Of a stretch of DNA of 64,000 nt, positions 10,268-55,645 are shown piece after piece. Numbering within the stretch: position 1 is the first letter of the stretch; each line of letters opens with the position of its first letter. Where the stretch lies: NCBI GenBank assembly GCA_017443235.1, contig JAFSOV010000016.1, positions 9,525-73,524 on the forward strand. Reading direction: 5' to 3'. The translations under genes were made by a program, and so were the position numbers. Below the pieces are notes generated by a model that was given only the letters and a program-made list of their open reading frames with translations, did no database searches and had not been told where the DNA came from. This DNA is from Alphaproteobacteria bacterium. GTDB taxonomy: Bacteria; Pseudomonadota; Alphaproteobacteria; Rs-D84.

Positions 10268-11111
10268 GTCCAATATACTATATGAAAAAAATGTTTTTTC
10301 AACGCCTTTTTTATGCGGGTATGCCGAATTAAAAATTCCAATACTGGATTCAAGCGGAAATTCGGCATGGCCGGCGGTTTTTCCGCCTGAAAAAATTGCC
10401 CAAATCAGGGATACGGTCGGTGAAAGGCATTTTTCGGCGCAAATGATGCTGGATTATGTGTCGCCTGAAAAAATCCGCCTGGATCCCGGGACAATACATT
10501 TTTATGAAGACGAATTTGACCCACACACCGCCCGCATCGGGGACGATTTAATGTCGGGTGCGGCAATTTATTGGGACCCATCGGGTGGCCGCCGCGGCGC
10601 CGATAACAGTGTTTGTGCATTGATTTATCGTGACGATAAAAATCGCCGCGTCTTTATACACGATATTATCTATGTTGTTGTGCCAGATGAAATAGATTAT
10701 CCATTGGCATATCAATGTGACCGGATTATCGAATTTGTGCGTCACAGCAATATGCACCAAATTGCATTGGAAACAAATGGTCTTGGGGCGGCATTACCCG
10801 AAATTATGCGTGACATCATAAAGCGTAATGGTGGCGGAATAAATCTGCGCCCAATAACAAATTCGCGGCGCAAAGAAGACCGTATATTGGACGCATTGGA
10901 ACCATTAATGTCAACGGGTCGATTGTTCGCCCATCGGCGAATCACCCAAACCCCATTTATTACAGAAATGTTGGCATGGTCGCCATTAGGCGGATGCGAA
11001 CACGATGACGGTTTGGATGCGGTTGCCGGTGCAATTACGTGTCCGCCGGTACCTGTGCGCCCAACCTTTGGTGGTGCGCGGTATATGGCAAACACAGATT
11101 TCAAAATTTAA
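10266..11111 (+). CDS. terminase large subunit, C-terminal nuclease fragment (split gene)
   Basis: It starts exactly at the dnaB start on the other strand. The AIYWDPSGGRRGADNSVCAL...HDIIYVV...ETNGLG...DDGLDA pattern is the RNaseH-like nuclease domain of large terminases. Confidence 0.65.
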   Translation: MSNILYEKNVFSTPFLCGYAELKIPILDSSGNSAWPAVFPPEKIAQIRDTVGERHFSAQMMLDYVSPEKIRLDPGTIHFYEDEFDPHTARIGDDLMSGAAIYWDPSGGRRGADNSVCALIYRDDKNRRVFIHDIIYVVVPDEIDYPLAYQCDRIIEFVRHSNMHQIALETNGLGAALPEIMRDIIKRNGGGINLRPITNSRRKEDRILDALEPLMSTGRLFAHRRITQTPFITEMLAWSPLGGCEHDDGLDAVAGAITCPPVPVRPTFGGARYMANTDFKI

Positions 11112-11132: not shown

Positions 11133-12359
11133 ATGAAATATGATTTACAACAAATGTACAATCGCGCGATAAATATGCGTGAACCTTGGTTGCGTCGTTG
11201 GGCGGATGCGCGCCGTTATACCATGCCATCAACCGATGAAGATTTGGCGACACTGTTTGATGCGACCGCATCGGACGCGGCCGACAATTTGGCGGCGTGT
11301 ATGTATTCGCTGTTGACGCCCCCAGAATCTTTGTGGTTAAACCTTGTTCGTGAAAGCGATGATTCGCCCGACCCAGAAATCGCAACCGCGGCATTGCGTG
11401 CGAATTTGAATGATTCGAATTTTTACACAACGATTCATCAATGCTATATGGATTTAGTGACATTGGGGACGGCGTGCCTGTTTATGGCGGAATCGCCCAT
11501 TGGCACGGCCAGTGCGTTTTCATTTACGGCAATTCCAATTTCTGATATTGCAATTTTACCGGATGCGATATTTCATACAACAACGCTTTCGGCGGCGGAA
11601 ATTTCGCGCCGTTATCCTGAATGGACACCGCCACGCGATATAATGAAAAAAATGCAGCAAGATGCGGAATACAGACTTCGCCTGGTCCAATCTTTGGTGG
11701 GTACTGAATTTACCGCGTGGATTGACGTTGGCGGCGACTTTGAAAACAACATAGTGTCGCGTGGGACATTCGAAACGAATCCTTATTTGATTTTCCGTTG
11801 GTCGGTGGCCAGTGGTGAATTATACGGTCGTGGCCCGATTTTGCGCGCTTTGCCGGACATCAAAACCGCAAACAAAGTTGTCGAATTGGTTTTGAAAAAT
11901 GCAACAATCGCGGTCAGTGGCATATGGCAGGCCGATGATGACGGCGTCATAAACCTTGGCAATATCAATTTAACACCGGGTGCGATAATACCAAAAGCCG
12001 TGGGCAGTTCGGGCCTGACGCCACTTGCGTCGGGTGCAAATTTTGATGTGTCGCAAATTATTTTGAAAGATTTGCGCGAACGTATCCGGCACACTTTATT
12101 GGCGGACAGAATCGGTTTGTTATCTGAAAAAGAAATGACCGCAACAGAAATCTTGGCGCGCAATGCGGATATGCTGCGCATTTTGGGTGCGACATATGGG
12201 CGTCTGTTGCATGAATTTATACGGCCACTGTGCGACCGCGGATTGCAAATATTGGCACGGCGGGGCGTGATTGACAAGATATCATTGCACGGTGATGCAG
12301 AATTGAAATACATCGCGCCCATCGCGCAAATGGTTGCAGAAAATAATACAATAATTTAG
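11133..12359 (+). CDS. head-tail connector (portal) protein, T7 gp8-like
   Basis: ELYGRGPILRALPDIK and TATEILARNADMLRILGATYGRLLHEFIRPLCDRGLQILARRG parallel the T7 gp8 central and C-terminal regions. Confidence 0.6.
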   Translation: MKYDLQQMYNRAINMREPWLRRWADARRYTMPSTDEDLATLFDATASDAADNLAACMYSLLTPPESLWLNLVRESDDSPDPEIATAALRANLNDSNFYTTIHQCYMDLVTLGTACLFMAESPIGTASAFSFTAIPISDIAILPDAIFHTTTLSAAEISRRYPEWTPPRDIMKKMQQDAEYRLRLVQSLVGTEFTAWIDVGGDFENNIVSRGTFETNPYLIFRWSVASGELYGRGPILRALPDIKTANKVVELVLKNATIAVSGIWQADDDGVINLGNINLTPGAIIPKAVGSSGLTPLASGANFDVSQIILKDLRERIRHTLLADRIGLLSEKEMTATEILARNADMLRILGATYGRLLHEFIRPLCDRGLQILARRGVIDKISLHGDAELKYIAPIAQMVAENNTII

Positions 12360-15864: not shown

Positions 15865-18123
15865 CTAAAACTGGGTTTCAAATGATAACAGGAAACGCCG
15901 TTCACGGTCATGTTTGCCCATCTTTAATGGCCAACCCCAACTGAAATTCATTGGGCCCATTGGCGTGTTCCAATAAATACCGAACCCGGCGGATGTGCGA
16001 ATACCGCTGTCGATATAATTGGGTCGCCCAAGGTACGTGTCTTCACGGGATGGCGGTTTGCCCAAAACACCATAGTCCGCAAACACAAAACCCTTTATCT
16101 GGTATTCATCGGGAATAAATATCGGGAAATTTAATTGGGTTGAACCGTTGACCTTCCACATACCACCAAGTGCATAGGAATTATAGTACCAATTACGACT
16201 GCCTATGCCGGCAATTTCAAACCCGCGCATTGATTCGCCGCCCAAGAAATACCGATACACACGCGGGACATAATCATCACCAATCGATTGAATATATCCA
16301 AAATCCAGTGATGTTTTTAATTGCCACCGGTCATCCAAGAATTTCACCATTGCGGTTGCATCCGCACTGTATCGCATAAATGTTTCGGTGCCACCGAATC
16401 CAGTGTACGCCACACCCAAATTCCCGACCAAACCGGTATGGGTATTTTGTTCAAAATTCGTATCCAGGTTATAGTACTTCAAATATGTTCCCAATGTGTA
16501 CAGGCGCGCATTTTGCCATCCACCAATTTGTAAATCATAGTTTTGATCAAAAGATGCCGACAAACGCAGGGTCTGGGACCAATGGTCGGTCAATTGCCAC
16601 CCAAGCCGCCCCGCAATGGTAAGTGAATCGCGGTCATAACCAAATCCACCCAAATGTTTATAGTTATACATTGTGTATGAAACATCAAACCCGGCGGACA
16701 ACGCACGCCCAAACAGGAACGGTTCGGTAAAACTGAATAATGCCTGTTTTTGATATTGTGCGATGGAACCACGCAATTGCACCGTTTGGCCACGTCCCAT
16801 AAAATTATTTTCTGTGATACCGGCATCCAACATAAATCCGTTTATATTTGACCAACCAAAACCGCCCGACAATTCGCCGGTGGGTTGTTCTTCAACCTTG
16901 ATATCCAAATTCATCATATTGGCATCGGCGATGCGACTTGGTACCATTTGCACATCTTTGAAATAACGTGTCCGCATCAAACGTTGGCGTCCCTGTTCAA
17001 TTGTTTGTAAAGAAAATGGGTCGCCCGCGCGCATAGGAATCAATTGATTTATCACCGAATCAAACGTCCGTACATTTCCCAAAATGTTTATAGAATTCAA
17101 ATAAATTCTGTTTGTTTTTTGAATTTTGAAATCTAAATCTATGGTGCGCGCATCATCATTTTTTGTTGGCACTGGTTCAACATTTATAAACGCGTACCCA
17201 TAATCTGCAACCGCACCACGCAGGGCCGAAATACTGGATTCCACTTTATCAACATTATATGTATCGCCATTGGAAATGGTCAACGCATCATATAAAACAT
17301 CATCCGGCACATCGTCAAACGGATTATCAATACTCAATTTTCCAATTTTGTATTTTGGGCCTTCTTCAACATTAAATACCACAGAATAATACTCGCGGTC
17401 GGGTGTAAAAGTTCCCTTGGCATTTTTTACCTGGAAATCGACATAACCATTACGCAGGTAAAATTGGCGCAACATTTGTTGGTCGTATAATATACGATCT
17501 TCATCGTACACGTCAAATTGTGACATAAAACGCCACCATGCGTGTTCGCGTGACAATATTTCACCGCGCAGTGTTCGTGAACTGAATTTTTCATTGCCTT
17601 CGAAATCAATGTCACGAATATATGTCGGGTGACCTTCGGTAATTTCATAAACAACATTCACACGATTATCATCCAACGATATTTTCTTGGGTTCGATTTT
17701 CGTCCCGAAAAAGCCCTTGCGTTGATATACGGTCAACATCCGTCCAACATCAGCGCCAATCACAGATTGATCAAATGCAGAACGCTCTTTTAATTTTATC
17801 TCTTTTTTCAAATCATCGGTTGAAACCTCGTCATTACCTTCGACCGTCACCATATTCACAATTGGTGCCTCGGTAATATTTATTTTCATTACGTTTCCAT
17901 TCATTTGAACCGAAACATTTGAAAAATATCCGCTTTCTTGTAATTGCTTGGCAATTTTGTTTGTGCGTTCGGTCGTGATGTTTTCGCCAATTTTGACATC
18001 GGCCAATATTCGCACAGATTCCGCATCCATACGATTGTTGCCCACCACATCAACGCGCGAAAGCGTCGCCGCGCCCGCGGGCAATGCAAAAATCATCAAA
18101 AACAGGAACAAATATTTCTTCAT
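15865..18123 (-). CDS. bamA: outer membrane protein assembly factor BamA (Omp85)
   Basis: A signal peptide, POTRA repeats, and a C-terminal barrel ending ...LLSFETQF. Confidence 0.9.
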   Translation of the reverse strand: MKKYLFLFLMIFALPAGAATLSRVDVVGNNRMDAESVRILADVKIGENITTERTNKIAKQLQESGYFSNVSVQMNGNVMKINITEAPIVNMVTVEGNDEVSTDDLKKEIKLKERSAFDQSVIGADVGRMLTVYQRKGFFGTKIEPKKISLDDNRVNVVYEITEGHPTYIRDIDFEGNEKFSSRTLRGEILSREHAWWRFMSQFDVYDEDRILYDQQMLRQFYLRNGYVDFQVKNAKGTFTPDREYYSVVFNVEEGPKYKIGKLSIDNPFDDVPDDVLYDALTISNGDTYNVDKVESSISALRGAVADYGYAFINVEPVPTKNDDARTIDLDFKIQKTNRIYLNSINILGNVRTFDSVINQLIPMRAGDPFSLQTIEQGRQRLMRTRYFKDVQMVPSRIADANMMNLDIKVEEQPTGELSGGFGWSNINGFMLDAGITENNFMGRGQTVQLRGSIAQYQKQALFSFTEPFLFGRALSAGFDVSYTMYNYKHLGGFGYDRDSLTIAGRLGWQLTDHWSQTLRLSASFDQNYDLQIGGWQNARLYTLGTYLKYYNLDTNFEQNTHTGLVGNLGVAYTGFGGTETFMRYSADATAMVKFLDDRWQLKTSLDFGYIQSIGDDYVPRVYRYFLGGESMRGFEIAGIGSRNWYYNSYALGGMWKVNGSTQLNFPIFIPDEYQIKGFVFADYGVLGKPPSREDTYLGRPNYIDSGIRTSAGFGIYWNTPMGPMNFSWGWPLKMGKHDRERRFLLSFETQF

Positions 18124-24276: not shown

Positions 24277-24369
24277 ACCAAATAATGTATCATAAATTCA
24301 CTTTGTTTGAAAGACTTTTTGTGATAGAATATATGTCGATAAATTAAAACTTTGGGGGAGATAAAAATT

Positions 24370-27300
24370 ATGCCAGAAAATAATGTTCGTGATAACAATG
24401 CCCGTCGTACGACCGATGATAACTTGATTGCGTTGGCCAAGAATATAGCACGCGCATATCGTGAAATTGGTATTTTGACTGAACGTGAATATAACGTGGT
24501 TCGGCGCACAAACAATCTTGATGCAATAAACGATATTATTGGCGATATTCCCAATATGGAATCGGAACAAAAATTGCAATTCTGCAAAAGCTTTGTCGCC
24601 GATGATACAGAAAACTTTAATGGCGCAACCCCGGCAATATTGGCATATGCGTATATGGCGACGCGTAATGAAAATACGCCGATGGCACGTGCATTGGCCG
24701 CGCGCATTGATGATATGTCCGCAGATTTTGCAAATTCCGGTGGTATGGTTTTGGAAACCGGAACAAAATGGCCGTTGGTTGATATTACGAACATTGCCGA
24801 TGTATACGAAGGTTTTTCTGATGCGTTAAATGCGCGTATTGCGGATTTAGATGCGGGGGCGGATGCCGAAAAAATTGCCCAGATGAAATCTAACCTGGCG
24901 CAAATGGAAACGGTGATTGCCGATTACGACCGTGCGTGGGGATTGGACAAAGTTCATGATACCGAAGCCCTGGAATATGGTAAACGTTGGGATAAATTGA
25001 ACGATGCGTTAAATCGTGCCGGATTGTTCGCGGCGACCAAGGATGCCGTAAAGAAATATAATTTTACAGATGAACACGGTGATGTTATTCCACAAATCTT
25101 GGAAAACGGTGAATTGGACCAAGAAGGTCGTGCGGCGGCGATTTTGGATTTGGCGCGCGGTGATATTGCGCGTCGCCGCATTAGTACCGCAAACAAAAAA
25201 CTTGATGCGAACGAAATTGAACAAGAATTAAACGATGAATTTTTGTTCAAATTGTACGAAACGGCAAATGCCGACAAAATCGTCAAAATGGCCCAAGAAA
25301 ATCCAGAGGTCTTTACAGACCAGCAAAGGCGGAATGATTTTGTTCGTGAAATGATGTCCCAAGGTGGCGATATTTCAAATACGGCGTACAATGCGGCGTT
25401 GGATTCGAATGCAAATGCCGTTGCCGGTTGGGCGCCGCGGTTAAAGGCAAAATTGGGCACGGCCGCAGACAATGTTGGTGGATTATGGAATAAGATTTTT
25501 AACAAGAATCACGATGTTGATAGATTAAACAATGTTCGCATTGCGCCCCAAACCATTGATAAACGTCAAAAACGCATTGAATTGTTCAAACGTGTGTTAA
25601 AGGGATTCGCCAGTGGTTTTGTCGCCAGTATGATTATTACAACAATCGCGACTGCGGCGGCGGCAACGGCCGGAATATCGATGGCGGCATCTATGGCGGC
25701 AATTGGGATTGTGACCGCGATTGGTATGGGCGTTGTCCAGGTTAATCGTTGGCGTCGTCGTCAACAAGATGCGGGTTTGCCAACCGATATTCACGCATTT
25801 TTGGCGGATAAACGTCTTGTTACATCGCTTGGTGTGTCGGCAATCGCCGTTGTTGCGATGTGCTTTGGTGCCGGCGGGATGGCGGATGCCGCAATGGCAT
25901 TGGGTTACGGCGCGTTGGCGGCGGGTGGCGCCAAGAACGCAATCGAATCATATCGTGATGCGCGTGATTCGCGTATGTCGGTTGCGGAATCTGTTGCGTG
26001 GGCAATCGCAAATGCGGGCGCGGTTGTTGCCGGTGGTTTAACGGGTCGATATACTGCAAACGCGGCAATAAATGCATACAATAATGCAAACCCAGAAAAC
26101 ACAATTTTCCAAAACCAGGAAACGCGAACAATTGAACATACGAATACTACAACCGAAACGCGGACTGAATATACCCAAGATGCATTGGATAACGCAGAAA
26201 AAATCGCACGTATGTGGTATCGTGATAACCCGGATATATTGCAACAACGTGTTGATGCAATAAATGCGTATAACGCGGAACACGGGACAAGCATTGATCC
26301 GTATCGTGCAATTATGATAAATGGCGATGCGGGCGGTCAAACATTTGATAATATGCGTCTGCATGTGAACAACAGTCATCTGGATGCAAATATCAATGAT
26401 GTGTACAGTCACGGTCACCATCGTGTCTTGACCGATGCATGGGGGCGCGCACATGGTTTTACCGGCGAAGAATTGAATGCGGCGGCACGTCTGTTTAATG
26501 CCGATGGTTCGGTTAACGCAAACGGTATGGATGTGGTGTCGCGTCTTGATGGCGTGGTAAGTGAAACCAACACGGTGGGTGCTGTCCCGGGACGCCCGGT
26601 TCAAACAGATGGTTATTTCAAACCAAATGACCCAGAGGGATGGACAACATATACCGATGGTCGTCCGGCAACGGTTGAAAATATATATGATACAACCGAA
26701 ACCACATATGAAAATCTAACAGATTATACGCGTGCGCGCGGTGACGGTATGGCGGCGTTTGGAAATTATAATCCGCGTGAACGCAAAACCACACTGCGTG
26801 ACCGTATCGGTGCGTTCTGGGATAAAATAAATCAAGACAAAAAAGAGAATCCGGTCATAGAACCCGTCTTGACCGATGAACCAAAGGACGAATCACGGGA
26901 TGATAATCCATTTATTCCTGTTGTATCGTTTGTTAACGATAAAGACAAAGATAAAGCAGAAACACCGGTCATAGAACCCGTCTTGACCGATGAACCCAAA
27001 GATGAAAAGGTCGATTTTGACGATGTGTTTCCTGGGCCGGGTGATGTGGTTGATACAGAAACGGTTTATACATTGGACCCGGAAAATACCCCGGTCATTG
27101 AACCTGTGATTGAAAACGTGGAACAACCGGTTGCCCCGGTGGCGGACGACAAAATATTGGCAATCACTCGGTCCCAGGCGAAATCTTGGCATGATTTACA
27201 TGCGCGTTTAGAAAAAAATCAAAAGAAATTAAGCAAGAGTCCACACGGTTCCAAGGCGGACAAACTGCACGCCGAAGAATCAAAATTGCAGTATCTTATC

Positions 27301-28614
27301 AATAAACTGCGCAATGAATTGGGACATTATGATGATGATACAATAGAACGCGCTGCGCGCGAGGCTTTGCTGCGTGAAGACCTGAATGCAAAACAGGCGT
27401 TGGTTGCCGCGGGTCCGGGTGCGGGCGCGACCAAGTGGGACGAATTGGATTGGCGCGGTGAAATTGCAAAACTGGACCATAAAATAAATAAAAAGATAGA
27501 ACAATGGGGCGATGACATAGAATCTGGCGCGCGTGCGGATAAATCCAAATTGCGTTTCCCGACACCGGTTCCGGGCGTGCAACGCCAAAAGAAAGATGCA
27601 CGCGGGTATGTGAAATTGCCGACCGAAAATGAATTGCATCCACGCGCGGATGAAATTGTTGTTGAACCACGCAATGAAAAACCGATTCAGGTCAAAGATG
27701 CGGAACCTAAGCCGACACGTGCAGAACGCAGGGCGGCCCGCCGTGAACAAAAAATGGAACAAAAGGCCAAACGGCGCGCGGAACACGAAAGAATTGCCGC
27801 ATCTTTACCGCAAAAGGTCGAACGGTTCAATTTGTTTGGTGCATTAAAGCGCGCATTGGGCAAAGTTTCAAAAAATGACAAGCCTGAACGCGAATACTTT
27901 GTCCCGGAATCGTTGGAACAATTGGTGTATGATGCGAACCTTATCGCGGAACCCATTACAACGATTCGTGGTGTGCCGGTGCGACTGATTGATTTGGGTG
28001 GCAATGACAATCCAATCACACAAAATTACGAGAGGCCGATTGTTGTTGTTGAAATTAAACAAAATGTCGTTCGTGACGGTATGCCCCAGACGGATTTAGT
28101 GCGTGTGCCGTTCTATCTTGCAACCGGGACGGAATATCATTCTTATCGTCCAACCGGACATTGGTATCCGTTGTCCATGCTTCGTTCCGATAAAAGTACC
28201 AGAATTGAACAGGATTACAATGCCCCGGAATTAGAGCATATTGCCAAAGCGTTGGATAAAAAAATTGGCGACGTACGTAACTGGCGTGATAATACGTTGA
28301 CGCAAAAACGCGAATCGGCGGGTCGGGTCGGCTTTGTCGGTGGTGCAGACGCAATGCAACATGTTAACCCAGAATTGGTAAATAAAATTGTCGCAGAATC
28401 TGTGTGTGGTACCAGGTCGCTGTATAATTACAGTCCGGAATACGTTGCGGTTGCACGCGATTGGATGTTGGACGCATTGGCGGACATTGAATCGCCGGAT
28501 TGGGCGGAACGCAAACGCAAGTTTGGCGGTGGTATCAAAAACATTGCCCATCGTGCATTAAATCGTTTTGGGTTTGGACGTGACGATTACGAAGATGACG
28601 AATACGAACATTAA
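24370..28614 (+). CDS. giant hypothetical protein (about 1415 aa), candidate secreted effector
   Basis: GGGGGAG RBS. A central cluster of hydrophobic/TM segments, C-terminal tandem PVIEPVLTDEPKDE repeats, and an acidic tail. Confidence 0.6.
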   Translation: MPENNVRDNNARRTTDDNLIALAKNIARAYREIGILTEREYNVVRRTNNLDAINDIIGDIPNMESEQKLQFCKSFVADDTENFNGATPAILAYAYMATRNENTPMARALAARIDDMSADFANSGGMVLETGTKWPLVDITNIADVYEGFSDALNARIADLDAGADAEKIAQMKSNLAQMETVIADYDRAWGLDKVHDTEALEYGKRWDKLNDALNRAGLFAATKDAVKKYNFTDEHGDVIPQILENGELDQEGRAAAILDLARGDIARRRISTANKKLDANEIEQELNDEFLFKLYETANADKIVKMAQENPEVFTDQQRRNDFVREMMSQGGDISNTAYNAALDSNANAVAGWAPRLKAKLGTAADNVGGLWNKIFNKNHDVDRLNNVRIAPQTIDKRQKRIELFKRVLKGFASGFVASMIITTIATAAAATAGISMAASMAAIGIVTAIGMGVVQVNRWRRRQQDAGLPTDIHAFLADKRLVTSLGVSAIAVVAMCFGAGGMADAAMALGYGALAAGGAKNAIESYRDARDSRMSVAESVAWAIANAGAVVAGGLTGRYTANAAINAYNNANPENTIFQNQETRTIEHTNTTTETRTEYTQDALDNAEKIARMWYRDNPDILQQRVDAINAYNAEHGTSIDPYRAIMINGDAGGQTFDNMRLHVNNSHLDANINDVYSHGHHRVLTDAWGRAHGFTGEELNAAARLFNADGSVNANGMDVVSRLDGVVSETNTVGAVPGRPVQTDGYFKPNDPEGWTTYTDGRPATVENIYDTTETTYENLTDYTRARGDGMAAFGNYNPRERKTTLRDRIGAFWDKINQDKKENPVIEPVLTDEPKDESRDDNPFIPVVSFVNDKDKDKAETPVIEPVLTDEPKDEKVDFDDVFPGPGDVVDTETVYTLDPENTPVIEPVIENVEQPVAPVADDKILAITRSQAKSWHDLHARLEKNQKKLSKSPHGSKADKLHAEESKLQYLINKLRNELGHYDDDTIERAAREALLREDLNAKQALVAAGPGAGATKWDELDWRGEIAKLDHKINKKIEQWGDDIESGARADKSKLRFPTPVPGVQRQKKDARGYVKLPTENELHPRADEIVVEPRNEKPIQVKDAEPKPTRAERRAARREQKMEQKAKRRAEHERIAASLPQKVERFNLFGALKRALGKVSKNDKPEREYFVPESLEQLVYDANLIAEPITTIRGVPVRLIDLGGNDNPITQNYERPIVVVEIKQNVVRDGMPQTDLVRVPFYLATGTEYHSYRPTGHWYPLSMLRSDKSTRIEQDYNAPELEHIAKALDKKIGDVRNWRDNTLTQKRESAGRVGFVGGADAMQHVNPELVNKIVAESVCGTRSLYNYSPEYVAVARDWMLDALADIESPDWAERKRKFGGGIKNIAHRALNRFGFGRDDYEDDEYEH

Positions 28615-39802: not shown

Positions 39803-40528
39803 TTATTTGTCTAACTTTTTGGCCCAATCGCTTTCGGGAAAGTTCAATTTCAACATTTCCGCATACCCATCCGCTTGCTGCGGCAGGCCGATTGCCGTAT
39901 ATGCCTCGGTCAGTCTGTACATTGCTTCGGCCGGCATAACGGTCTCTGGTGCATCGGTAATAATGGATTGGAATTTTGTAATCGCCGCGCCCCAATTTTC
40001 TTTCTTCATATCGTTGCGCGCAGAATACATAACTTTGCCGGCAATATAGTTCTTTAAGATATTGATTTTATTTTTTGCGTTTTGTGCATACGGCGAACGG
40101 GGAAACCGGTCAACCAATTGTTGAAATTGTTGCAACGCATATACCGACATTCCCGGTTCGCGGCGAACATCACTGACCTGGCGATAATAACACATTCCGC
40201 GCAGGTATAATACATATGGAACATCACTGTGCCCGGGGTGGAACCGCATAAACCGGTCGGTGGTAAGCAATGCGCCGGCAAAATCATCGTCCAGATATTG
40301 CGAATATGCCGCCATAACCAGGGCATCTGCGGCCCAGGGACTGGCCGGGTATTGGGTCTCGATGGTTAAGAATTTTTCCGCCGCGTCATCATAGTCTTTA
40401 TCTTCGAATTCCGCATACGCCGCGTCATACAGGTCTGCCAACGGTTCTTGGGGAACGATTTTTTGTGTGTCGCCGGCGCATCCCGCCAGAATTCCCCCCA
40501 CCAAAGTCGCAAAAAATATTTTTTTCAT
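39803..40528 (-). CDS. bamD: outer membrane assembly lipoprotein BamD (YfiO)
   Basis: Lipobox LAGCAG and TPR-like repeats. Confidence 0.75.
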   Translation of the reverse strand: MKKIFFATLVGGILAGCAGDTQKIVPQEPLADLYDAAYAEFEDKDYDDAAEKFLTIETQYPASPWAADALVMAAYSQYLDDDFAGALLTTDRFMRFHPGHSDVPYVLYLRGMCYYRQVSDVRREPGMSVYALQQFQQLVDRFPRSPYAQNAKNKINILKNYIAGKVMYSARNDMKKENWGAAITKFQSIITDAPETVMPAEAMYRLTEAYTAIGLPQQADGYAEMLKLNFPESDWAKKLDK

Positions 40529-50286: not shown

Positions 50287-51796
50287 ATGAAACAGGCACG
50301 GAAAACAAAACTTACGAAATCTGCGTTGGGGATTGCAACGGCCGCATTGGTTGCGGGCGGGGTCGCGGTGCACGGTGGCAAACAAAAAGCACGCGCCAAA
50401 TCAACCGTGCCGAATGAACAAGACGCTACGCCCAATCGGGGGGAAATACAGAAAAATTTGACATTTGGTGAATACAAAGAAATGTTGGCACCGGTCACGC
50501 CTTATATTATGTTGGAATTGATTTTGAATGAAGGAATAAAATTGGATAAATCCGGCAAATACTGCATCCCATATAAAGATTCACGCGGTGTTTGGACAAT
50601 TGCGTTTGGCGTCACCACAACACGTGACGGTAAAAAGGTCACCAAGAAAACAAAACCGATTCCAATTGAACGTGCGTGGGATGAATCTATACACTTTTTG
50701 GAATCGCGCGAGACATATTTTTTTAATGTATTGCTATGATGTCGGGTGTGAAAATTTGCATTTGGATAATGCGGCGCGTGCGTGCGCGTTTGCGTCGGTG
50801 TTCTATAATTCCGGAACAAAACTTATGGAAGAACCAAGTGATAAAAATCACCGTGAACGCAATGAAACCCTGCGCAATTTATACAAAGAATACGGCGATA
50901 ATATCACCGCGGATATGGTACGCGAATGCTTTTCTAAATATCCAATTGTTGCGCCACGTTCATTTGGCGCGCGCGCAATTGCCGGTGCGTCGGACAAAGA
51001 ATTGGCGGACATCCTTGGAATCTATACGGTTGGTGGTCGTGGCCTGTGGTCGCGGCGTTGGCTAGAAGGTCAAATCTTGATGGGAAATATTACGCCCGAA
51101 GACTTTTTGAATTTGCCCGAACAAAGTCTTTATGAATTCTTTCGGTTGATGGGCGAAACACGTGAAGTGTTTTGGATTGGTAAAGACCAAGATACAAAAA
51201 TAAATATGCAAACTTTGCCTGCATTTAAGCAATGGATAAAAAATCCGGTCACGCACGATGGCAAAACAAAGTTTTCCGGTAAAACAATTGGGCAGATGTT
51301 GGAACGTATGAACCCAACCATATTGGCCCAGTTTGATGACGGCAAATATGAATTGGGCGATATCAAACAATTTGATGGACGCCCGAATGTGAAATCAATG
51401 ATGGATTCGTTATATTTCTTGGCAAATGCGGATTTCTTGGCGGGTGATTATGAATCCGCCGCGGAAAAGTTCGAAACTTTGGCGGAAAAAAATCCAAACA
51501 ATGCGCAAATCTTTAATGATTTGGCCGCGACATATAACAATATGGGTGAACACGAACGCGCATTGGCCGCGGTAAATCATATTATCAAAGAAATCAAAGA
51601 CAAATCCGCATTTGCGGCGGCATATTATAATGCCGGTGTTGCGCGCGAATCATTGGGTGAATTGGACAAGGCATTGATAAATTATAATAAAGCAATCGAA
51701 AACGGAAATAAATCGCCACGCGTTCCCGATGCAATTAAACGTGTTGAATTGAATAAAAACCTGGCAAGGCGAAATACCGGTCAAATCCACGTTTAA
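50287..51796 (+). pseudogene. lysozyme (GH24, phage-type) with C-terminal TPR domain, reading frame broken at a T7 homopolymer
   Basis: Frame 1 reads LNEGIKLDKSGKYCIPYKDSRGVWTIAFGVT up to a stop at 50739. The +1 frame continues LMYCYDVGCENL...AFASVFYNSG followed by TPR repeats. The T-run is at 50718-50724. Confidence 0.55.
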
Positions 51797-51903
51797 TCAA
51801 TAAGATGTTAACGGTTTTTATGTTTGCAGTACATTGCATAATATGATACAATATACATCATAGATTTTATACAACAAGCAACAAATTAAAATGGAGGAAT
51901 AAA

Positions 51904-53502
51904 ATGAGAAAACTAACAATCTTAACATCTATATTGGCATTGGCCGCATGCAGCAGTGGCGGCGGCGGTGGACATAACCCTGGATATGCCCACGGCGCAG
52001 CCAGCACCCCAGTGACAGGGCCAACATTTACGGATGGTATTTATACAAATACTGAAAATAATGACAATGTCACGCAAATGAAAACCCAGGTTATAGTCGA
52101 TTCTAATGGGCATTCCGTTGCCCCGACATTGTCACGTGGTGGCAGTATTCGTTCAGGATCTATTCAAGACACAAACGGAAATTCATACAATGTCTATGAT
52201 TTGGAAGATGTAAAATTAAATGTTGCAGATGAAAATGCTGGTTGGTTAAAGATTGGATTGGCGGATGATGGGGCCATCAAAGATATCACTTTGTCCAGTG
52301 GCGGTGTAGAATCGCAATTGGCGCGTGAAGGCACAACAAATCAATTCCGTGGACCAATTTTTGAATATGTTCCAAACGATGACGACAGAGCGTCGTATCG
52401 CATAGTCGATGGTACAGATTTTGGGGAATTTGTAAATATAGAAGGTTTTGCTGATACATTGGATGACAACGGTCACGCAACAATGGCTACATTGGAATTG
52501 ATTGCGTCCAACAAGAATTTAACCGGTGGCCATTGGAATTATATTGATGAAAGAATGGATGTCACAACAAATAAACATATTACCGCAGGTAATTCAAACG
52601 CCGTGGCATTGCAATATTCTGATTTTGGACATTTTAACCCAGTGTACAGAAGTAAACATACGGAATTGGATGCAGATGTCTTGGCGGCCATACGTGAATA
52701 TGGTGCGGATATCGAGGCGGCATTATTGGCGGGTAATACGACCGAGTTTAATAATTTATTAGAAACATCTGGGCTTGACCGGGATGGCAAAGACAAATAC
52801 CGTGATAATGACGAATTTGCCGCGAAATTGGGTCAGGCAAATTATCAACTGTTCGCCGGTGGATACGCAATTGGCGCCGATGGTCAATTGATAGAAGGCG
52901 GATCATTTGATGCGCCGGTTGGTGCAACGTTTACCGGAACAGGCGTTGGGCGTGTTTATACCAGTATTCATGCAAATGCCGATGGAACCGAAGATGAATA
53001 TAAAAATGCCGTGTTGGCGCAATATGGCATCACCGGTGATGGTCATGATATAGTGAAAAGTTTCACGACCAGTTCGGCACAATTAGAAATTGATGCAAAC
53101 GGAAACCAGACTTTGGAAATGGTGTTTCCAGATTTTTATACCGTAACTGCAACCCAAACCGCCGGTGGAGTTTCAAATGTGACATTAACGGCCGATAATG
53201 ACAAACTTGCGCAGATAGAAAAACAATACAGAAAAACAAGTGATGTTGCGTTGCCGGATTATGGTGAAACGCCCCCGACACACCAGGTCACCAGTAATGG
53301 CACCACAGACGCGCCAGAAACGGCATTTATTCCCGGATACTATGGCGTTGGATCTGTATCCGAAGCGGCCGGTTTGGTGCGATATGCTGAAGAAACAAAT
53401 GATATCGAGGTCACAAACACAACTGACCCGGATAACCCGGAAATCAAAACCTTTACGCGTGAATTTGAATTCCAAGGCGCGTACGGTATGAAGAAAGACT
53501 AG
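51904..53502 (+). CDS. surface lipoprotein (SLP-type; Slam substrate candidate)
   Basis: Lipobox LAACSSGGGGGHNPG, a poly-Gly linker as in TbpB/fHbp, and a beta-rich protein ending FEFQGAYGMKKD. Confidence 0.5.
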   Translation: MRKLTILTSILALAACSSGGGGGHNPGYAHGAASTPVTGPTFTDGIYTNTENNDNVTQMKTQVIVDSNGHSVAPTLSRGGSIRSGSIQDTNGNSYNVYDLEDVKLNVADENAGWLKIGLADDGAIKDITLSSGGVESQLAREGTTNQFRGPIFEYVPNDDDRASYRIVDGTDFGEFVNIEGFADTLDDNGHATMATLELIASNKNLTGGHWNYIDERMDVTTNKHITAGNSNAVALQYSDFGHFNPVYRSKHTELDADVLAAIREYGADIEAALLAGNTTEFNNLLETSGLDRDGKDKYRDNDEFAAKLGQANYQLFAGGYAIGADGQLIEGGSFDAPVGATFTGTGVGRVYTSIHANADGTEDEYKNAVLAQYGITGDGHDIVKSFTTSSAQLEIDANGNQTLEMVFPDFYTVTATQTAGGVSNVTLTADNDKLAQIEKQYRKTSDVALPDYGETPPTHQVTSNGTTDAPETAFIPGYYGVGSVSEAAGLVRYAEETNDIEVTNTTDPDNPEIKTFTREFEFQGAYGMKKD

Positions 53503-53519
53503 GTGTTGTTTGGTTCTGT

Positions 53520-54896
53520 ATGGTAAAAAAACTTATTGTTTTATTGATGTTGATTCAGCCCATGTTTGCGTGGGCTGAATCGCATAATGATGGTGCGATT
53601 GATGATTCGGACGAACAAAAATCCATTATGGAAATCACGATGTCGCCAGTTGATGCTGTAAAAATTGCCGGAAATTTGGTTTATGAAGGCAAATACAATA
53701 GCGCTTTACAGATTTTGACTAAAATGCCACAAACCGGTCAAAACGCGGTGGAAATTGAACGGTGGTATTTGATTGCGCAAATCGAGCAACGGCGTGGCAA
53801 TATTGATGAAGCAATTAAAATCTATCGCAAATTGTTGGACGAGCAACCCGATTTGGTCAAGATTCGTTATGAATTGGCTCAGTGCTATATGTTGCAAGAA
53901 AAATGGTATCGTGCCGATTATCATTTGCGCCTTGCGATGGCGGGAAACGATATTCCCGATGGTGTAAAACGCAGTATGATGTATTATCGATATGTTATTC
54001 GGCAAAATAAAAATTGGAATGTGTGGTTTAACTTTGGCGCCGCCCCCGATAATAATATAAACCAGGTTGCCGGTGGTGAAGAATGTATCACTAACGAATG
54101 GGGCGTGTTTTGCCGCCAATTACCCGAACCGATTTCTGCGGTTGGATACAATATGACTTTGGGTGGCGATTATGAATTTAAATTAAGCGATCATTGGCGC
54201 TGGAAAAACGACGCGAATTTATACGCAAACGTTTATAATAAACACGAATACGATGATTTATACTTTGGGGTATCGTCTGGCCCGCGCTATGTGTGGCAAA
54301 ACGGCGATATTTGGTTGGCGGGAATCGGTTTGCGGCGACTTTATGGTTGGGATGGGTACAATTGGTCATATGGTGGCAAGATAGATTTTAATTACGATTT
54401 ATCACGCCGTTGGGCAACGGGATTAAACCTTAGTTTTACGAATAATGTGTATGATGAATTTGCAGATTATATGAACGGTCAAACATATTCTGCAAATCAA
54501 AGAATTTCTTATTCGTTTGATGCATCAAAATATTTAATTCTGCGCGGCGGGGTTGCACGTGAAAATGCGGCCAGTGATATATATAAAAATTGGCGATATA
54601 TGGCGTCTTTGGGTTTCGGCGCAGAATTGCCGTGGGGATTTCACGTATATCTGGAACCGTCCGTTTCGTGGACAAATTATGATGGGGCGCGTTGGGCGGT
54701 TAAGAAAAATCATTTTACACAAATTACCGAACACGATGTAACGCAAAGATATACGATATCATTGTCAAACAATAAATTCGATATATGGGGATTTGTGCCG
54801 ACAATAACATTCGGCTATACGCGGCGCGATTCAAATATTAAAAATCGTGGGTACGACAAAATGGTGGTGGAATTTACTATGCGCCAAAGATTTTAG
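53520..54896 (+). CDS. Slam-family (surface lipoprotein assembly modulator) outer membrane protein: TPR plus a DUF560-like barrel
   Basis: A signal peptide, N-terminal TPR repeats (IERWYLIAQIEQRRGNIDEAIKIYRKLL...), and a C-terminal barrel ending ...VVEFTMRQRF. It lies immediately downstream of the lipoprotein. Confidence 0.6.
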   Translation: MVKKLIVLLMLIQPMFAWAESHNDGAIDDSDEQKSIMEITMSPVDAVKIAGNLVYEGKYNSALQILTKMPQTGQNAVEIERWYLIAQIEQRRGNIDEAIKIYRKLLDEQPDLVKIRYELAQCYMLQEKWYRADYHLRLAMAGNDIPDGVKRSMMYYRYVIRQNKNWNVWFNFGAAPDNNINQVAGGEECITNEWGVFCRQLPEPISAVGYNMTLGGDYEFKLSDHWRWKNDANLYANVYNKHEYDDLYFGVSSGPRYVWQNGDIWLAGIGLRRLYGWDGYNWSYGGKIDFNYDLSRRWATGLNLSFTNNVYDEFADYMNGQTYSANQRISYSFDASKYLILRGGVARENAASDIYKNWRYMASLGFGAELPWGFHVYLEPSVSWTNYDGARWAVKKNHFTQITEHDVTQRYTISLSNNKFDIWGFVPTITFGYTRRDSNIKNRGYDKMVVEFTMRQRF

Positions 54897-55081: not shown

Positions 55082-55645
55082 TTATTCTTGGATGATGCCG
55101 CGCCGGGCCAATGCCGTGACCAAATCCGGATAATGTTCCACGCGCCCCCTCAGGTGATGATTATACGGCGTATCCGGATTAGAAATCATCGCAACATCGA
55201 TACCGTTTGCCAAGCAATCCGCAACCACAATCGGTGAATCATCAAAGCATAAATCAATTCCGTAATTGCGCAGGGCATCAATCTTGGGTTTATAATTCAC
55301 GACCTGATTTCTGGCGCATTTGATACCGGCGCAGTTTAATTGACCAATATCCATATCCGCCGTGGCAATCGGGCGTTCGGTGATAAAATATACATCTGTA
55401 TCGGGCCGCGCCATTATCATATTTAGCATTTTTGGCAATTCCTTGTTCAACACCGGCATATCGCGTAATTCCACGGAATCAAATGCCGCCATTATTTCAT
55501 CTGCGACATGTTCAGGGACACATTGGTATGGGTCATATGATGTCAATAAATTAAAATCGACCCCGCTGCGCGCGCATATATTGCGTATCATAATTGCTGT
55601 ATTGAAAACCGTGTTATCTAAATCGATTGCGATTTTTAATATCAT
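55082..55645 (-). CDS. HAD-superfamily 5'(3')-deoxyribonucleotidase-like protein (NT5C family)
   Basis: The N-terminal KIAIDLDNTV DxD motif, which is typical of NT5C. Confidence 0.5.
   Translation of the reverse strand: MILKIAIDLDNTVFNTAIMIRNICARSGVDFNLLTSYDPYQCVPEHVADEIMAAFDSVELRDMPVLNKELPKMLNMIMARPDTDVYFITERPIATADMDIGQLNCAGIKCARNQVVNYKPKIDALRNYGIDLCFDDSPIVVADCLANGIDVAMISNPDTPYNHHLRGRVEHYPDLVTALARRGIIQE

What the first reader, a model, noticed from the sequence alone, without database searches (positions are those of the whole stretch)
51904..54896. Surface-lipoprotein and Slam translocator pair
A 532-aa lipoprotein carries the Cys-SSGGGGG flexible linker that is characteristic of TbpB/fHbp-type surface lipoproteins. 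It is immediately followed by a 458-aa outer-membrane protein with N-terminal TPR repeats and a C-terminal barrel ending in F, which is the Slam/DUF560 architecture. Slam systems flip lipoproteins to the cell surface and have mostly been described in Neisseria, Haemophilus and Moraxella. Finding one in an AT-rich genome that may be intracellular, with a substrate of unknown function, deserves a second look.
Basis: partly seen in the sequence, partly recalled or inferred. Interest (0 to 1): 0.6.

Follow-up and report, generated by a model that had tools for sequence, protein, structure and literature searches.

The report
Slam translocator with novel, swappable lipoprotein cargo
An uncultured gut alphaproteobacterium carries a two-gene unit, a known type of outer-membrane translocator (Slam, type XI secretion) and an unannotated lipoprotein it most likely puts on the cell surface, and the lipoprotein gene is exchanged between lineages while the translocator stays put.

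Summary
ORF 51904-53502 encodes a 532-aa lipoprotein (lipobox LAAC, Cys16, then SSGGGGG). ORF 53520-54896 encodes a 458-aa Slam: PF04575 at E=8.9e-34 over the full model, N-terminal TPRs, terminal Phe.

The pairing is not chance. In 25 of 26 loci from species-representative MAGs a Slam lies directly downstream of a homologue of this lipoprotein.

The lipoprotein belongs to a narrow family without annotation or Pfam hits (104 hits among 1.84 billion representatives), found in gut MAGs labelled Alphaproteobacteria or Ca. Enterousia. AlphaFold models are confident (pLDDT 89 and 93) and show a disordered linker, a beta-rich head and a C-terminal domain of about 8 strands. That domain matches none of the Pfam cargo-barrel families. 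Links to TbpB and HphA_C barrels are weak but point the same way.

The new result is evolutionary. The cargo diverges faster than the Slam (47% against 69% mean identity). In one relative a ~1.9-kb tract (cargo plus Slam 5' end) is 97-99% identical, while the flanks have dS of about 1. In another relative the same slot holds an unrelated head.

Verdict: a genuine type XI (Slam) module with a new cargo family. New member of a known kind, of moderate interest. Function of the head is unknown.

The parts
51823..51852 (+). Promoter-like site upstream of the lipoprotein gene (TTTGCA-18-TACAAT, TG before the second hexamer)
   Evidence: This is a consensus match only: 14 sites were found in the region against 12.2 expected, so it is not significant on its own. 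The left recombination breakpoint against L038 lies here, at about 51850-51865.
51893..51897 (+). Shine-Dalgarno GGAGG, 6 nt before the ATG of the lipoprotein gene
   Evidence: Sequence read directly.
51904..51951 (+). Lipoprotein signal peptide with lipobox L-A-A-C; Cys16 is the predicted lipidation site
   Evidence: Cys16 is invariant in 60 aligned homologues. It is the only Cys in the mature protein.
51952..52020 (+). Gly/Ser-rich disordered tether (residues 17 to about 39; SSGGGGGHNPGY...)
   Evidence: pLDDT is below 50 for residues 1-36. A Gly-rich linker follows the Cys in nearly all family members. It begins with the same residues as fHbp.
52021..52419 (+). N-terminal beta-rich domain of the cargo (residues 40-172), the 'head'
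   Evidence: AlphaFold2 secondary structure, about 9 strands, pLDDT mostly 80-95. Mean pairwise identity between species is 45%. At the orthologous slot in L035 the N-terminal ~400 residues are unalignable.
52420..52830 (+). Long conserved beta-hairpin (HWN...LQYSDFGHFNPVY; residues 193-256) followed by a variable helical insertion (257-309)
   Evidence: The hairpin is the most conserved cargo segment (55% mean identity) and the helical insertion the least (33%).
52831..53502 (+). C-terminal domain of about 8 strands (residues 310-532) ending in the family motif REFEFQGAYGMKKD, plus the stop codon; proposed Slam-recognition barrel
   Evidence: Domain-only AlphaFold2 model: pLDDT 92.6, pTM 0.88, 8 main strands. 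The best Foldseek hits are 8-stranded barrels, all at low TM-scores. The domain is shared with a wider lipoprotein superfamily (A4 against A2 hhalign 99.9%). Weak links to the TbpB C-lobe and to HphA_C.
53503..53519 (+). 17-nt spacer between cargo stop and Slam start; no terminator and no obvious SD
   Evidence: Consistent with co-transcription.
53520..53576 (+). Slam signal peptide (MVKKLIVLLMLIQPMFAWA, predicted cleavage after A19)
   Evidence: Sequence read directly.
53664..53939 (+). Slam periplasmic TPR domain (residues about 49-140)
   Evidence: PF24575 TPR_Slam, TPR_19, ANAPC3 and TPR_14. PDB TPR proteins match residues 49-140.
54015..54875 (+). Slam DUF560/SlipAM outer-membrane barrel domain (residues 166-452); the protein ends in Phe458 (stop codon at 54894-54896)
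   Evidence: PF04575 E=8.9e-34, profile positions 1-282 of 288.
51865..53745 (+). Tract recently exchanged with the lineage represented by L038/L039: whole cargo gene plus the first ~75 codons of the Slam gene
   Evidence: Only 6 mismatches in 51865-53000. 97.3% identity over 51860-53790, against 83% and 76% in the flanks. Cargo dS is 0.09, against 0.89-1.27 in neighbouring genes. The control, L040, is uniformly 70-90% identical.

Best explanation
This is a two-gene type XI secretion (Slam) module. SHOWN: (1) The first gene encodes a lipoprotein precursor with a lipobox, a Gly-rich disordered tether, a beta-rich head and a C-terminal domain of about 8 strands. (2) The second gene encodes a bona fide Slam: signal peptide, TPR domain, DUF560 barrel, terminal Phe. 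(3) The two genes are 17 nt apart and stay adjacent across at least 25 species-level lineages. (4) BamA and BamD are encoded in the same window, so the organism has an outer membrane and the machinery to assemble barrels in it. INFERRED by homology with Neisseria, Moraxella and Xenorhabdus systems: the precursor is exported by Sec, lipidated at Cys16 and carried by Lol to the inner leaflet of the outer membrane. The Slam then recognises the C-terminal barrel domain and moves the protein to the cell surface, where it hangs from its lipid anchor by the flexible linker. ALSO SHOWN: the cargo evolves much faster than the Slam, its history is decoupled from the Slam's, and whole cargo alleles (with the Slam 5' end) are exchanged by homologous recombination between lineages whose flanking genes are near synonymous saturation. 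At one orthologous slot the head is replaced by an unrelated one while only the barrel is kept. INFERRED from this: the barrel is the constant export tag and the head is a variable, surface-exposed effector. Its most likely job in these reduced-genome, partner-dependent gut bacteria is binding something outside the cell, either a partner or host surface or a scavenged nutrient. Which of these is not resolved.
For: Slam identity: PF04575 E=8.9e-34 over the full model, TPR_Slam and generic TPRs; GenBank name DUF560.
Lipoprotein features.
Synteny: Slam directly downstream in 25 of 26 loci, the exception being a truncated contig; also L035, L038-L041 and L026, which has two tandem lipoproteins before its Slam.
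Architecture: full model pLDDT 89.2, pTM 0.85, residues 1-36 disordered; C-domain model pLDDT 92.6 with 8 main strands; the nearest folds are 8-stranded barrels, all at low TM-scores.
Barrel links, all weak: TbpB C-lobe 5kkx_A found by Foldseek (prob 0.89) and independently by the A4 profile over the whole domain (E=0.014); HphA_C over profile positions 7-111 of 113 in superfamily member P0184 (E=8e-5, below cutoff).
The literature defines T11SS cargo as a variable N-terminal effector plus a C-terminal 8-stranded barrel that dictates secretor specificity (bioRxiv 10.1101/2023.03.15.532718; PMC5449769).
Rates: cargo 47% against Slam 69% mean pairwise identity.
Recombination. The window-L038 pair is an outlier at +0.15 against a mean of -0.21 (sd 0.07) over 231 pairs, and L011-L032 have Slams 90% but cargo 44% identical.
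Head replacement at a conserved slot.
BAM components.
Lifestyle context: PMC12306168.
Against: No experiment shows surface exposure or Slam dependence.
The C-terminal domain matches none of the Pfam cargo-barrel families (PF01298, PF08794, PF22829) in 60 members at E<=1.
hhalign against fHbp is negative.
Foldseek TM-scores to all solved structures are low (0.1-0.3), and TbpB is absent from the top 50 of the domain-only search.
Model coordinates could not be inspected, so closure of the barrel is not verified.
No TonB-dependent receptor or other uptake partner is nearby, unlike many characterised Slam loci (PMC8406197).
Gene-wide dN/dS is low (0.13-0.14), so there is no gene-wide signal of positive selection.
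Some superfamily paralogues have no Slam within 4 kb.
Cargo and Slam distances correlate only weakly (Spearman 0.24-0.36).
Confidence: 0.75

Rival explanations
1. The lipoprotein is not a substrate. It is a periplasm-facing structural or regulatory partner of the DUF560 barrel, in the way LptE partners LptD or the Bam lipoproteins partner BamA. It is co-transcribed because the two form a stable complex with some other job.
For: Tight, conserved adjacency is equally expected for a stable complex. Surface exposure has not been tested. The C-terminal domain is not recognisable as a known cargo barrel by Pfam.
Against: Obligate structural partners normally co-evolve and stay conserved. Here the lipoprotein is far more variable than the Slam (47% against 69%), its distances barely track the Slam's (Spearman 0.24-0.36), its head can be replaced by an unrelated one next to a 77%-identical Slam, and two different lipoproteins can precede one Slam. 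The long disordered Gly-rich tether is typical of displayed lipoproteins such as fHbp.
Confidence: 0.08
2. The cargo is translocated by the Slam but works mainly as a released, soluble scavenger (hemophore-like, as HphA, hemophilin and HrpC are) rather than as a tethered surface protein.
For: T11SS also secretes soluble cargo. The only sub-threshold Pfam link is to the hemophore barrel HphA_C. The lineage lacks standard transporters and must scavenge.
Against: The lipobox and Cys16 are invariant in the aligned family, whereas hemophores are described as unlipidated. No TonB-dependent receptor is nearby to take up a captured ligand. No haem-binding family matches the window protein; NEAT hits occur in only 3 of 60 members, the best at E=0.0027.
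Confidence: 0.07
3. The adjacency is incidental. The Slam serves other, unlinked lipoproteins, and this lipoprotein stays in the periplasm with an unrelated role.
For: Unlinked superfamily paralogues exist. In Neisseria, Slam1 serves unlinked cargo (PMC5449769).
Against: Adjacency in 25 of 25 informative loci across lineages whose Slams are only 58-81% identical to the window's, with variable surrounding genes, is very unlikely without functional coupling. Cargo and the Slam 5' end are transferred together.
Confidence: 0.05
4. The barrel protein is a PgaA/HmsH-like TPR-porin for exopolysaccharide export rather than a lipoprotein translocator.
For: PgaA-like proteins also combine TPRs with a barrel, and some sit in the PF04575 network (PMC8406197).
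Against: The Slam does not hit the NCBIfam PgaA model. At 458 aa it is far shorter than that model (about 800 positions). No pgaBCD-like genes are in the neighbourhood. PF24575 TPR_Slam matches.
Confidence: 0.01

Closest known systems
Neisseria meningitidis Slam1/Slam2 with TbpB, LbpB, fHbp and HpuA (type XI secretion, subcluster 1A)
   Same: The translocator has the same architecture: signal peptide, TPR N-domain, DUF560 barrel. The cargo is a lipoprotein with a CSSGGGG-type tether (identical start to fHbp), a variable N-terminal part and a C-terminal beta domain of about 8 strands. Gene adjacency is as for Slam2-HpuA (PMC5449769). The cargo is variable and recombining; that tbpB and fHbp alleles behave this way in Neisseria is from my own knowledge and was not tested here.
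   Different: The cargo barrel is not detected by PF01298 or PF08794 or by hhalign against fHbp. It has long strands and large insertions. No TonB-dependent receptor partner is nearby. The host is an uncultured, apparently non-pathogenic gut alphaproteobacterium from a lineage with reduced genomes.
Hemophilin / HphA / HrpC with their HrpB-type T11SS (soluble hemophore cargo)
   Same: A C-terminal 8-stranded barrel acts as the specificity-determining export tag and the N-terminal domain is a variable effector. One superfamily member, P0184, gives a near-full-length but sub-threshold HphA_C match.
   Different: [quoted passage not shown] Here the lipobox is invariant, and no haem-binding family or receptor is present.
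Xenorhabdus nematophila NilB/NilC and Pasteurella multocida PmSLP (Slam-adjacent lipoproteins with host-interaction roles)
   Same: A Slam-type OMP is encoded next to a lipoprotein whose role is host interaction rather than a classical receptor-coupled uptake system (NilB/NilC as host-range and colonisation factors; PmSLP: abstract listed). This is the closest functional analogy for a cargo without a TonB partner.
   Different: There is no detectable sequence relationship. Those proteins come from Gammaproteobacteria with ordinary genomes. The function of the present cargo has not been tested.

Membership tests
Slam / T11SS outer-membrane protein (DUF560, PF04575) | C-terminal DUF560/SlipAM barrel domain | tested here: met
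   PF04575 E=8.9e-34, 117.8 bits (cutoff 22), residues 166-452 covering profile positions 1-282 of 288.
Slam / T11SS outer-membrane protein (DUF560, PF04575) | Periplasmic N-terminal TPR domain | tested here: met
   PF24575 TPR_Slam at 35.1 bits (cutoff 35.2, marginal). TPR_19, ANAPC3 and TPR_14 are above their cutoffs. PDB TPR proteins match residues 49-140.
Slam / T11SS outer-membrane protein (DUF560, PF04575) | Sec signal peptide and terminal aromatic residue typical of BAM substrates | tested here: met
   MVKKLIVLLMLIQPMFAWA|ES at the N-terminus; the protein ends ...MRQRF. BamA and BamD are encoded in the window.
Slam / T11SS outer-membrane protein (DUF560, PF04575) | 14-stranded barrel | not tested
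No solved Slam barrel is detectable by sequence in the PDB.
Slam / T11SS outer-membrane protein (DUF560, PF04575) | Genomic linkage to a cargo gene | tested here: met
   17-nt spacing in the window. Adjacency in 25 of 26 loci from species-representative MAGs.
Slam / T11SS outer-membrane protein (DUF560, PF04575) | Necessary and sufficient for surface display or secretion of its cargo | not testable with these tools
   Needs the E. coli reconstitution assay of PMC5449769.
Slam-dependent surface lipoprotein (T11SS cargo) | Lipoprotein signal peptide with lipobox Cys | tested here: met
   LAAC, with Cys16 invariant in 60 homologues.
Slam-dependent surface lipoprotein (T11SS cargo) | [quoted passage not shown] | tested here: inconclusive
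Slam-dependent surface lipoprotein (T11SS cargo) | C-terminal barrel assignable to Pfam TbpB_B_D (PF01298), Lipoprot_C (PF08794) or HphA_C (PF22829) | tested here: not met
   None of these hits any of 60 family members at E<=1. hhalign against fHbp gives 0.4-0.8%. Only weak hints exist: the A4 profile against TbpB 5kkx_A at E=0.014 over the whole domain, and HphA_C at 23.4 bits against a cutoff of 31 in one distant member. Known SLPs are themselves reported to share no sequence similarity with one another (PMC5449769).
Slam-dependent surface lipoprotein (T11SS cargo) | Surface exposure that depends on the cognate Slam | not testable with these tools
   Experimental.
TbpB/HpuA-type bipartite receptor systems | Cognate TonB-dependent receptor encoded nearby | tested here: not met
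   Pfam lists for +/-10 kb and the ten largest other ORFs of the window show none. The neighbours are housekeeping genes.

The most novel reading that the evidence does not exclude
The cargo family is the main partner- or host-recognition device (or nutrient-piracy device) of obligately partner-dependent gut Alphaproteobacteria with genomes under 1 Mb (Rs-D84 / Enterousia-like). On this reading a type XI secretion module has been kept through genome reduction to display a cassette-like, horizontally exchangeable head on a constant export barrel, and that barrel is a previously unrecognised sequence class of T11SS targeting domain. That would extend the definition of T11SS cargo beyond the TbpBBD and lipoprotein C families and give a concrete molecular handle on how these uncultured bacteria attach to or feed from other cells.
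Probability: 0.25. Interest if true: 0.65.

Novelty: new member of a known kind. Interest (0 to 1): 0.4.

Why it matters
Slam/T11SS is a known and widespread system, so finding another one is not surprising in itself. Three things give this case some value.

1. Published surveys predict T11SS cargo largely through the TbpBBD or lipoprotein C barrel domains. Those criteria would miss this family, because no Pfam model sees its barrel. It marks a blind spot and provides about 100 sequences from which a new model could be built.

2. The module is conserved in a lineage described as having genomes under 1 Mb, no standard transporters and a probable partner-dependent lifestyle. Surface proteins are the obvious candidates for partner contact there, and none has been characterised.

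3. The locus is a clean natural example of a fixed translocator with an exchangeable cargo: a 1.9-kb allele transfer across flanks with dS of about 1, and replacement of the head at the same slot. This supports, from evolutionary data alone, the model in which the C-terminal barrel is the export tag and the N-terminal part is the effector.

Tried and rejected
1. Pfam and NCBIfam on the cargo and on 60 homologues: no relevant family.
2. Profiles A1, A2 and A3 against PDB sequences: nothing credible. The neurexin LNS hits with A3 and A4 are short repeated matches with per-domain E >= 0.011, judged spurious.
3. hhalign of A2 and A4 against the verified fHbp sequence: negative.
5. The search for homologous proteins with the distant-barrel profile A4 returned a single hit. 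With the bridge protein P0184 it returned 4 relatives without Pfam domains, so the HphA_C link could not be strengthened.
6. Within-strain variation: contigs L001-L006 are 100% identical to the window in this region, so there is nothing to analyse.
7. Upstream lysozyme-TPR gene as a third component: rejected. It is absent from L007-L032 and from L040, and it is frameshifted in the window.
8. Slam outside the Proteobacteria (loci labelled Elusimicrobia): rejected as evidence. Those loci cluster at 74-87% Slam identity with loci labelled Alphaproteobacteria or Enterousia, so the labels are inconsistent within one clade.
9. Phase-variation tracts in the cargo/Slam unit: only an unremarkable A7 run at Slam codons 2-4. 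Such runs occur about once per kb in this window.
10. Gene-wide positive selection: dN/dS is 0.13-0.14, so it is not supported at that resolution.
Full report

- ORF 51904-53502 (+) encodes 532 aa beginning MRKLTILTSILALAAC-SSGGGGG. This is a standard lipobox (L-A-A-C) with the acylated Cys at residue 16, followed by a Gly-rich stretch.
- ORF 53520-54896 (+) encodes 458 aa with a cleavable signal peptide (…FAWA|ES) and a C-terminal Phe.
- A GGAGG Shine-Dalgarno lies 6 nt before the first ATG.
- Only 17 nt separate the genes, with no terminator between them or after the second.
- The window averages about 44% GC, so "AT-rich" is an overstatement.

**The translocator.** The 458-aa protein is a Slam.

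- PF04575 (SlipAM/DUF560) matches at E=8.9e-34 across 282 of 288 profile positions (residues 166-452).
- The N-terminal region matches PF24575 TPR_Slam at 35.1 bits (cutoff 35.2) and several generic TPR families above their cutoffs. PDB TPR proteins align to residues 49-140.
- It does not match the PgaA model.
- The exact sequence is in GenBank as MBQ6736568.1, [quoted passage not shown], and the lipoprotein is MBQ6736567.1, "hypothetical protein IJQ90_03725".
- BamA (15865-18123, −) and BamD (39803-40528, −) are in the same window, so the organism has an outer membrane and a barrel-assembly machine.

**The lipoprotein family.**

- The protein has no Pfam or NCBIfam hit.
- It has more than 100 homologues, all unannotated.
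- Nearly all share the lipobox LALAAC, a Gly/Ser linker and a conserved C-terminal motif [WYF]E[FVL]Q[GA]A[YW]GMKKQ.
- A profile of the C-terminal domain finds only 104 proteins at E≤1e-3, and 32 at E≤1e-30, among 1.84 billion cluster representatives. The core family is narrow.
- The weaker hits are lipoproteins with the same lipobox, the same internal landmarks (YSDFG, FAGGY, WYDV, YYG..PSEA.G) and a terminal …AFG[GM]K[KR]. Their barrel profile (A4) aligns to the window family's (A2) at 99.9% hhalign probability and hits the window protein at E=1.6e-20.
- The window holds only one member.

**Linkage.** I searched one genome per GTDB species with the family alignment. This gave 26 loci, all from MAGs of animal guts labelled Alphaproteobacteria, proteobacterium, Ca. 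Enterousia or, in four cases, Elusimicrobia.

- In 25 loci a Slam 58-81% identical to the window's lies immediately downstream on the same strand. The 26th contig ends inside the lipoprotein gene.
- The same holds in further metagenome contigs (L035; L038-L041).
- In L026 two lipoproteins, one core-family and one distant-type, precede a single Slam.
- The surrounding genes are not conserved. The upstream lysozyme-like/TPR gene is missing from L007-L032 and from L040, so the unit is just cargo plus Slam.
- Some distant paralogues (P0162, P0208) have no Slam within 4 kb. In Neisseria too, Slam1 serves unlinked cargo (PMC5449769).
- The "Elusimicrobia" loci cluster at 74-87% Slam identity with loci labelled Alphaproteobacteria or Enterousia. 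I read this as inconsistent MAG labelling, not as Slam outside the Proteobacteria.

**Structure.**

- AlphaFold2 on a 60-sequence alignment gives a confident model (pLDDT 89.2, pTM 0.85). Residues 1-36 are disordered. Residues about 40-170 form a beta-rich domain. A long conserved hairpin (209-222 and 239-252) is followed by a variable helical insertion (257-309), then a C-terminal block of long strands.
- The C-terminal domain modelled alone (residues 310-532) reaches pLDDT 92.6 and pTM 0.88, with eight main strands.
- This matches the three-part description of T11SS cargo: variable N-terminal effector, mid beta-sheet, C-terminal 8-stranded barrel (bioRxiv 10.1101/2023.03.15.532718).
- Foldseek against the PDB returns only weak matches (TM 0.1-0.3). 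All are 8- to 10-stranded barrels: PsbO, OmpW, OprG, nitrobindin and, with the full model, the N. meningitidis TbpB C-lobe 5kkx_A at probability 0.89.

**Is the barrel a known cargo barrel?**

- By sequence, no. None of 60 members hits PF01298, PF08794 or PF22829 even at E≤1.
- hhalign against fHbp is negative.
- Two weak signals agree with the Foldseek hint. The broad barrel profile A4 aligns to TbpB 5kkx_A over the whole domain (profile positions 12-163 of 163 against chain residues 92-235 of 239) at E=0.014. One distant member, P0184, matches HphA_C over profile positions 7-111 of 113 at E=8e-5, at 23.4 bits against a cutoff of 31, on the same stretch that the window-family profile matched.
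- Attempts to strengthen this chain failed.
- Hooda et al. note that the solved SLPs "share no sequence similarity" with one another, so the negative results are not decisive.
- I record the Pfam-family criterion as not met and the fold criterion as inconclusive.

**Evolution of the slot.**

- Across 20 species-level loci the mean pairwise identity is 47% for the cargo and 69% for the Slam. The cargo's mid hairpin (55%) and C-domain (49%) are its most conserved parts and the helical insertion (33%) the least.
- Cargo and Slam distances correlate only weakly (Spearman 0.24-0.36).
- Three relatives with equally diverged flanks (IMPDH-like protein about 89-90% identical in each) show three different states:

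| Relative | Cargo vs window | Slam vs window |
|---|---|---|
| L040 | 78% aa, dS 0.95; nucleotide identity uniform at 70-90%, consistent with vertical descent | 87% |
| L035 | Unalignable by BLASTP beyond the signal peptide; only the barrel is faintly related (E=8e-4) | 77% |
| L038/L039 | 97.9% aa, dS 0.09, while neighbours have dS 0.89-1.27 | 83% |

- Fine mapping against L038 shows 6 mismatches between 51865 and 53000. There are mosaic patches at 53085-53100 and 53305-53340. The sequence is near-identical again from 53480 to 53745. The flanks are 83% and 76% identical.
- So a tract of about 1.9 kb, running from the promoter-proximal region through the cargo gene and about 75 codons into the Slam gene, was exchanged recently between diverged lineages.
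- This pair is an outlier: cargo minus Slam identity is +0.15, against a mean of −0.21 (sd 0.07) over 231 pairs. The converse also occurs: L011 and L032 have Slams 90% identical and cargo 44%.
- The P0001 allele is on 8 contigs and the window allele on 22, which argues against a single chimeric assembly.
- Gene-wide dN/dS is 0.13-0.14. Diversification is therefore driven by recombination, indels and relaxed constraint rather than by detectable gene-wide positive selection. Site-wise tests were not possible.

**Mechanism.**

- Shown: the sequence features of both proteins, their co-location, conserved linkage, predicted architecture, differential evolutionary rates and allele exchange.
- Inferred from characterised systems: Sec export, lipidation at Cys16 and Lol delivery (Ser at +2). 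The Slam then recognises the C-terminal barrel and translocates the cargo to the surface, where the acidic mature protein (net charge about −44, no other Cys) hangs on a disordered tether of about 20 residues.
- The head's function is unknown. There is no TonB-dependent receptor, TonB or haem/metal family nearby, which argues against a TbpB/HpuA-type bipartite receptor.
- Related MAGs (Rs-D84 / Ca. Enterousia) are reported to have genomes under 1 Mb, to lack biosynthetic pathways and standard transporters, and probably to live off partner cells (PMC12306168). A conserved but allele-shuffled surface lipoprotein is therefore a plausible contact or scavenging molecule. That is inference.
- The window's own MAG is labelled only "Alphaproteobacteria bacterium". 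Its placement in Rs-D84 is suggested by its relatives, not proven.

**Comparison and novelty.**

- The system works like Neisseria Slam2-HpuA or Slam1-fHbp, and like NilB/NilC, and the Slam is a clear family member.
- Slams are already known from all proteobacterial classes: 832 in 638 species, and 851 predicted secretor/cargo pairs. The gene is auto-annotated as DUF560. This is therefore a new member of a known kind.
- What is new is the cargo family, which no Pfam barrel model recognises, its restriction to an uncultured gut lineage, and the evidence for cassette-like exchange at a fixed translocator.
- Interest: moderate (0.4).

Noticed in passing
window 50287-51796 (T-run at 50718-50724): The 150-aa and 356-aa ORFs upstream of the cargo are two halves of one gene. 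That gene is intact in relatives (503 aa in L035, 500 aa in L038). It has an N-terminal membrane anchor, an endolysin-like stretch (phrog_7, E=1e-5) and C-terminal TPRs. The window has a run of seven T's where the intact copies have six, which gives a +1 frameshift. The same split is called on all metagenome contigs of this strain, so it is probably real, either a pseudogene or homopolymer phase variation.
   Followed up: partly
loci L014, L018, L021, L022 against L010, L019: MAGs labelled Elusimicrobia (including Ca. Avelusimicrobium) carry cargo-Slam loci 74-87% identical at the Slam level to those of MAGs labelled Alphaproteobacteria or Ca. Enterousia. So the phylum-level labels in public records disagree within one tight clade. 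The cause could be mislabelling or mis-binning.
   Followed up: partly
L026 7668-8789: A second, smaller lipoprotein of the distant superfamily type (MKHLLILTSLLSLSAC…, ending …AAFGVSK) sits between the core-family cargo and the Slam. This gives two different cargo candidates ahead of one translocator.
   Followed up: no
window 11133-12359: This ORF is a strong match to the bacteriophage head-to-tail connecting (portal) protein family PF12236 (E=2.9e-78). It lies next to DnaB (8726-10273, −) in what is otherwise housekeeping context. It may be a prophage or a phage-derived remnant.
   Followed up: no
window 24352-28614: A 1420-aa ORF (TTG start as listed) with no Pfam family at E≤1e-5. A very large unannotated protein is notable in a lineage described as having small genomes.
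   Followed up: no
window 55082-55645 (− strand): The small convergent gene downstream of the Slam (187 aa, no Pfam hit) is only 49% identical to its L038 counterpart, while neighbouring genes are 83-93% identical. It is a second fast-evolving gene beside the cargo slot. Its N-terminus contains a DLDNT motif that reminds me of HAD-type phosphatases; that is from memory and untested.
   Followed up: no
L040 89-3017: In the relative that lacks the TPR gene, a YadA-anchor trimeric autotransporter adhesin (668 aa) and a resolvase lie just upstream of the IMPDH-like gene. So another surface-protein gene and a recombinase sit next to the cargo-Slam slot.
   Followed up: no
L033 634-2620: The unlinked superfamily paralogue P0162 lies downstream of a MacB_PCD/FtsX permease and an ABC ATPase (LolCDE-like in domain content) and two small unknown genes. 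This might reflect a link with lipoprotein trafficking.
   Followed up: no
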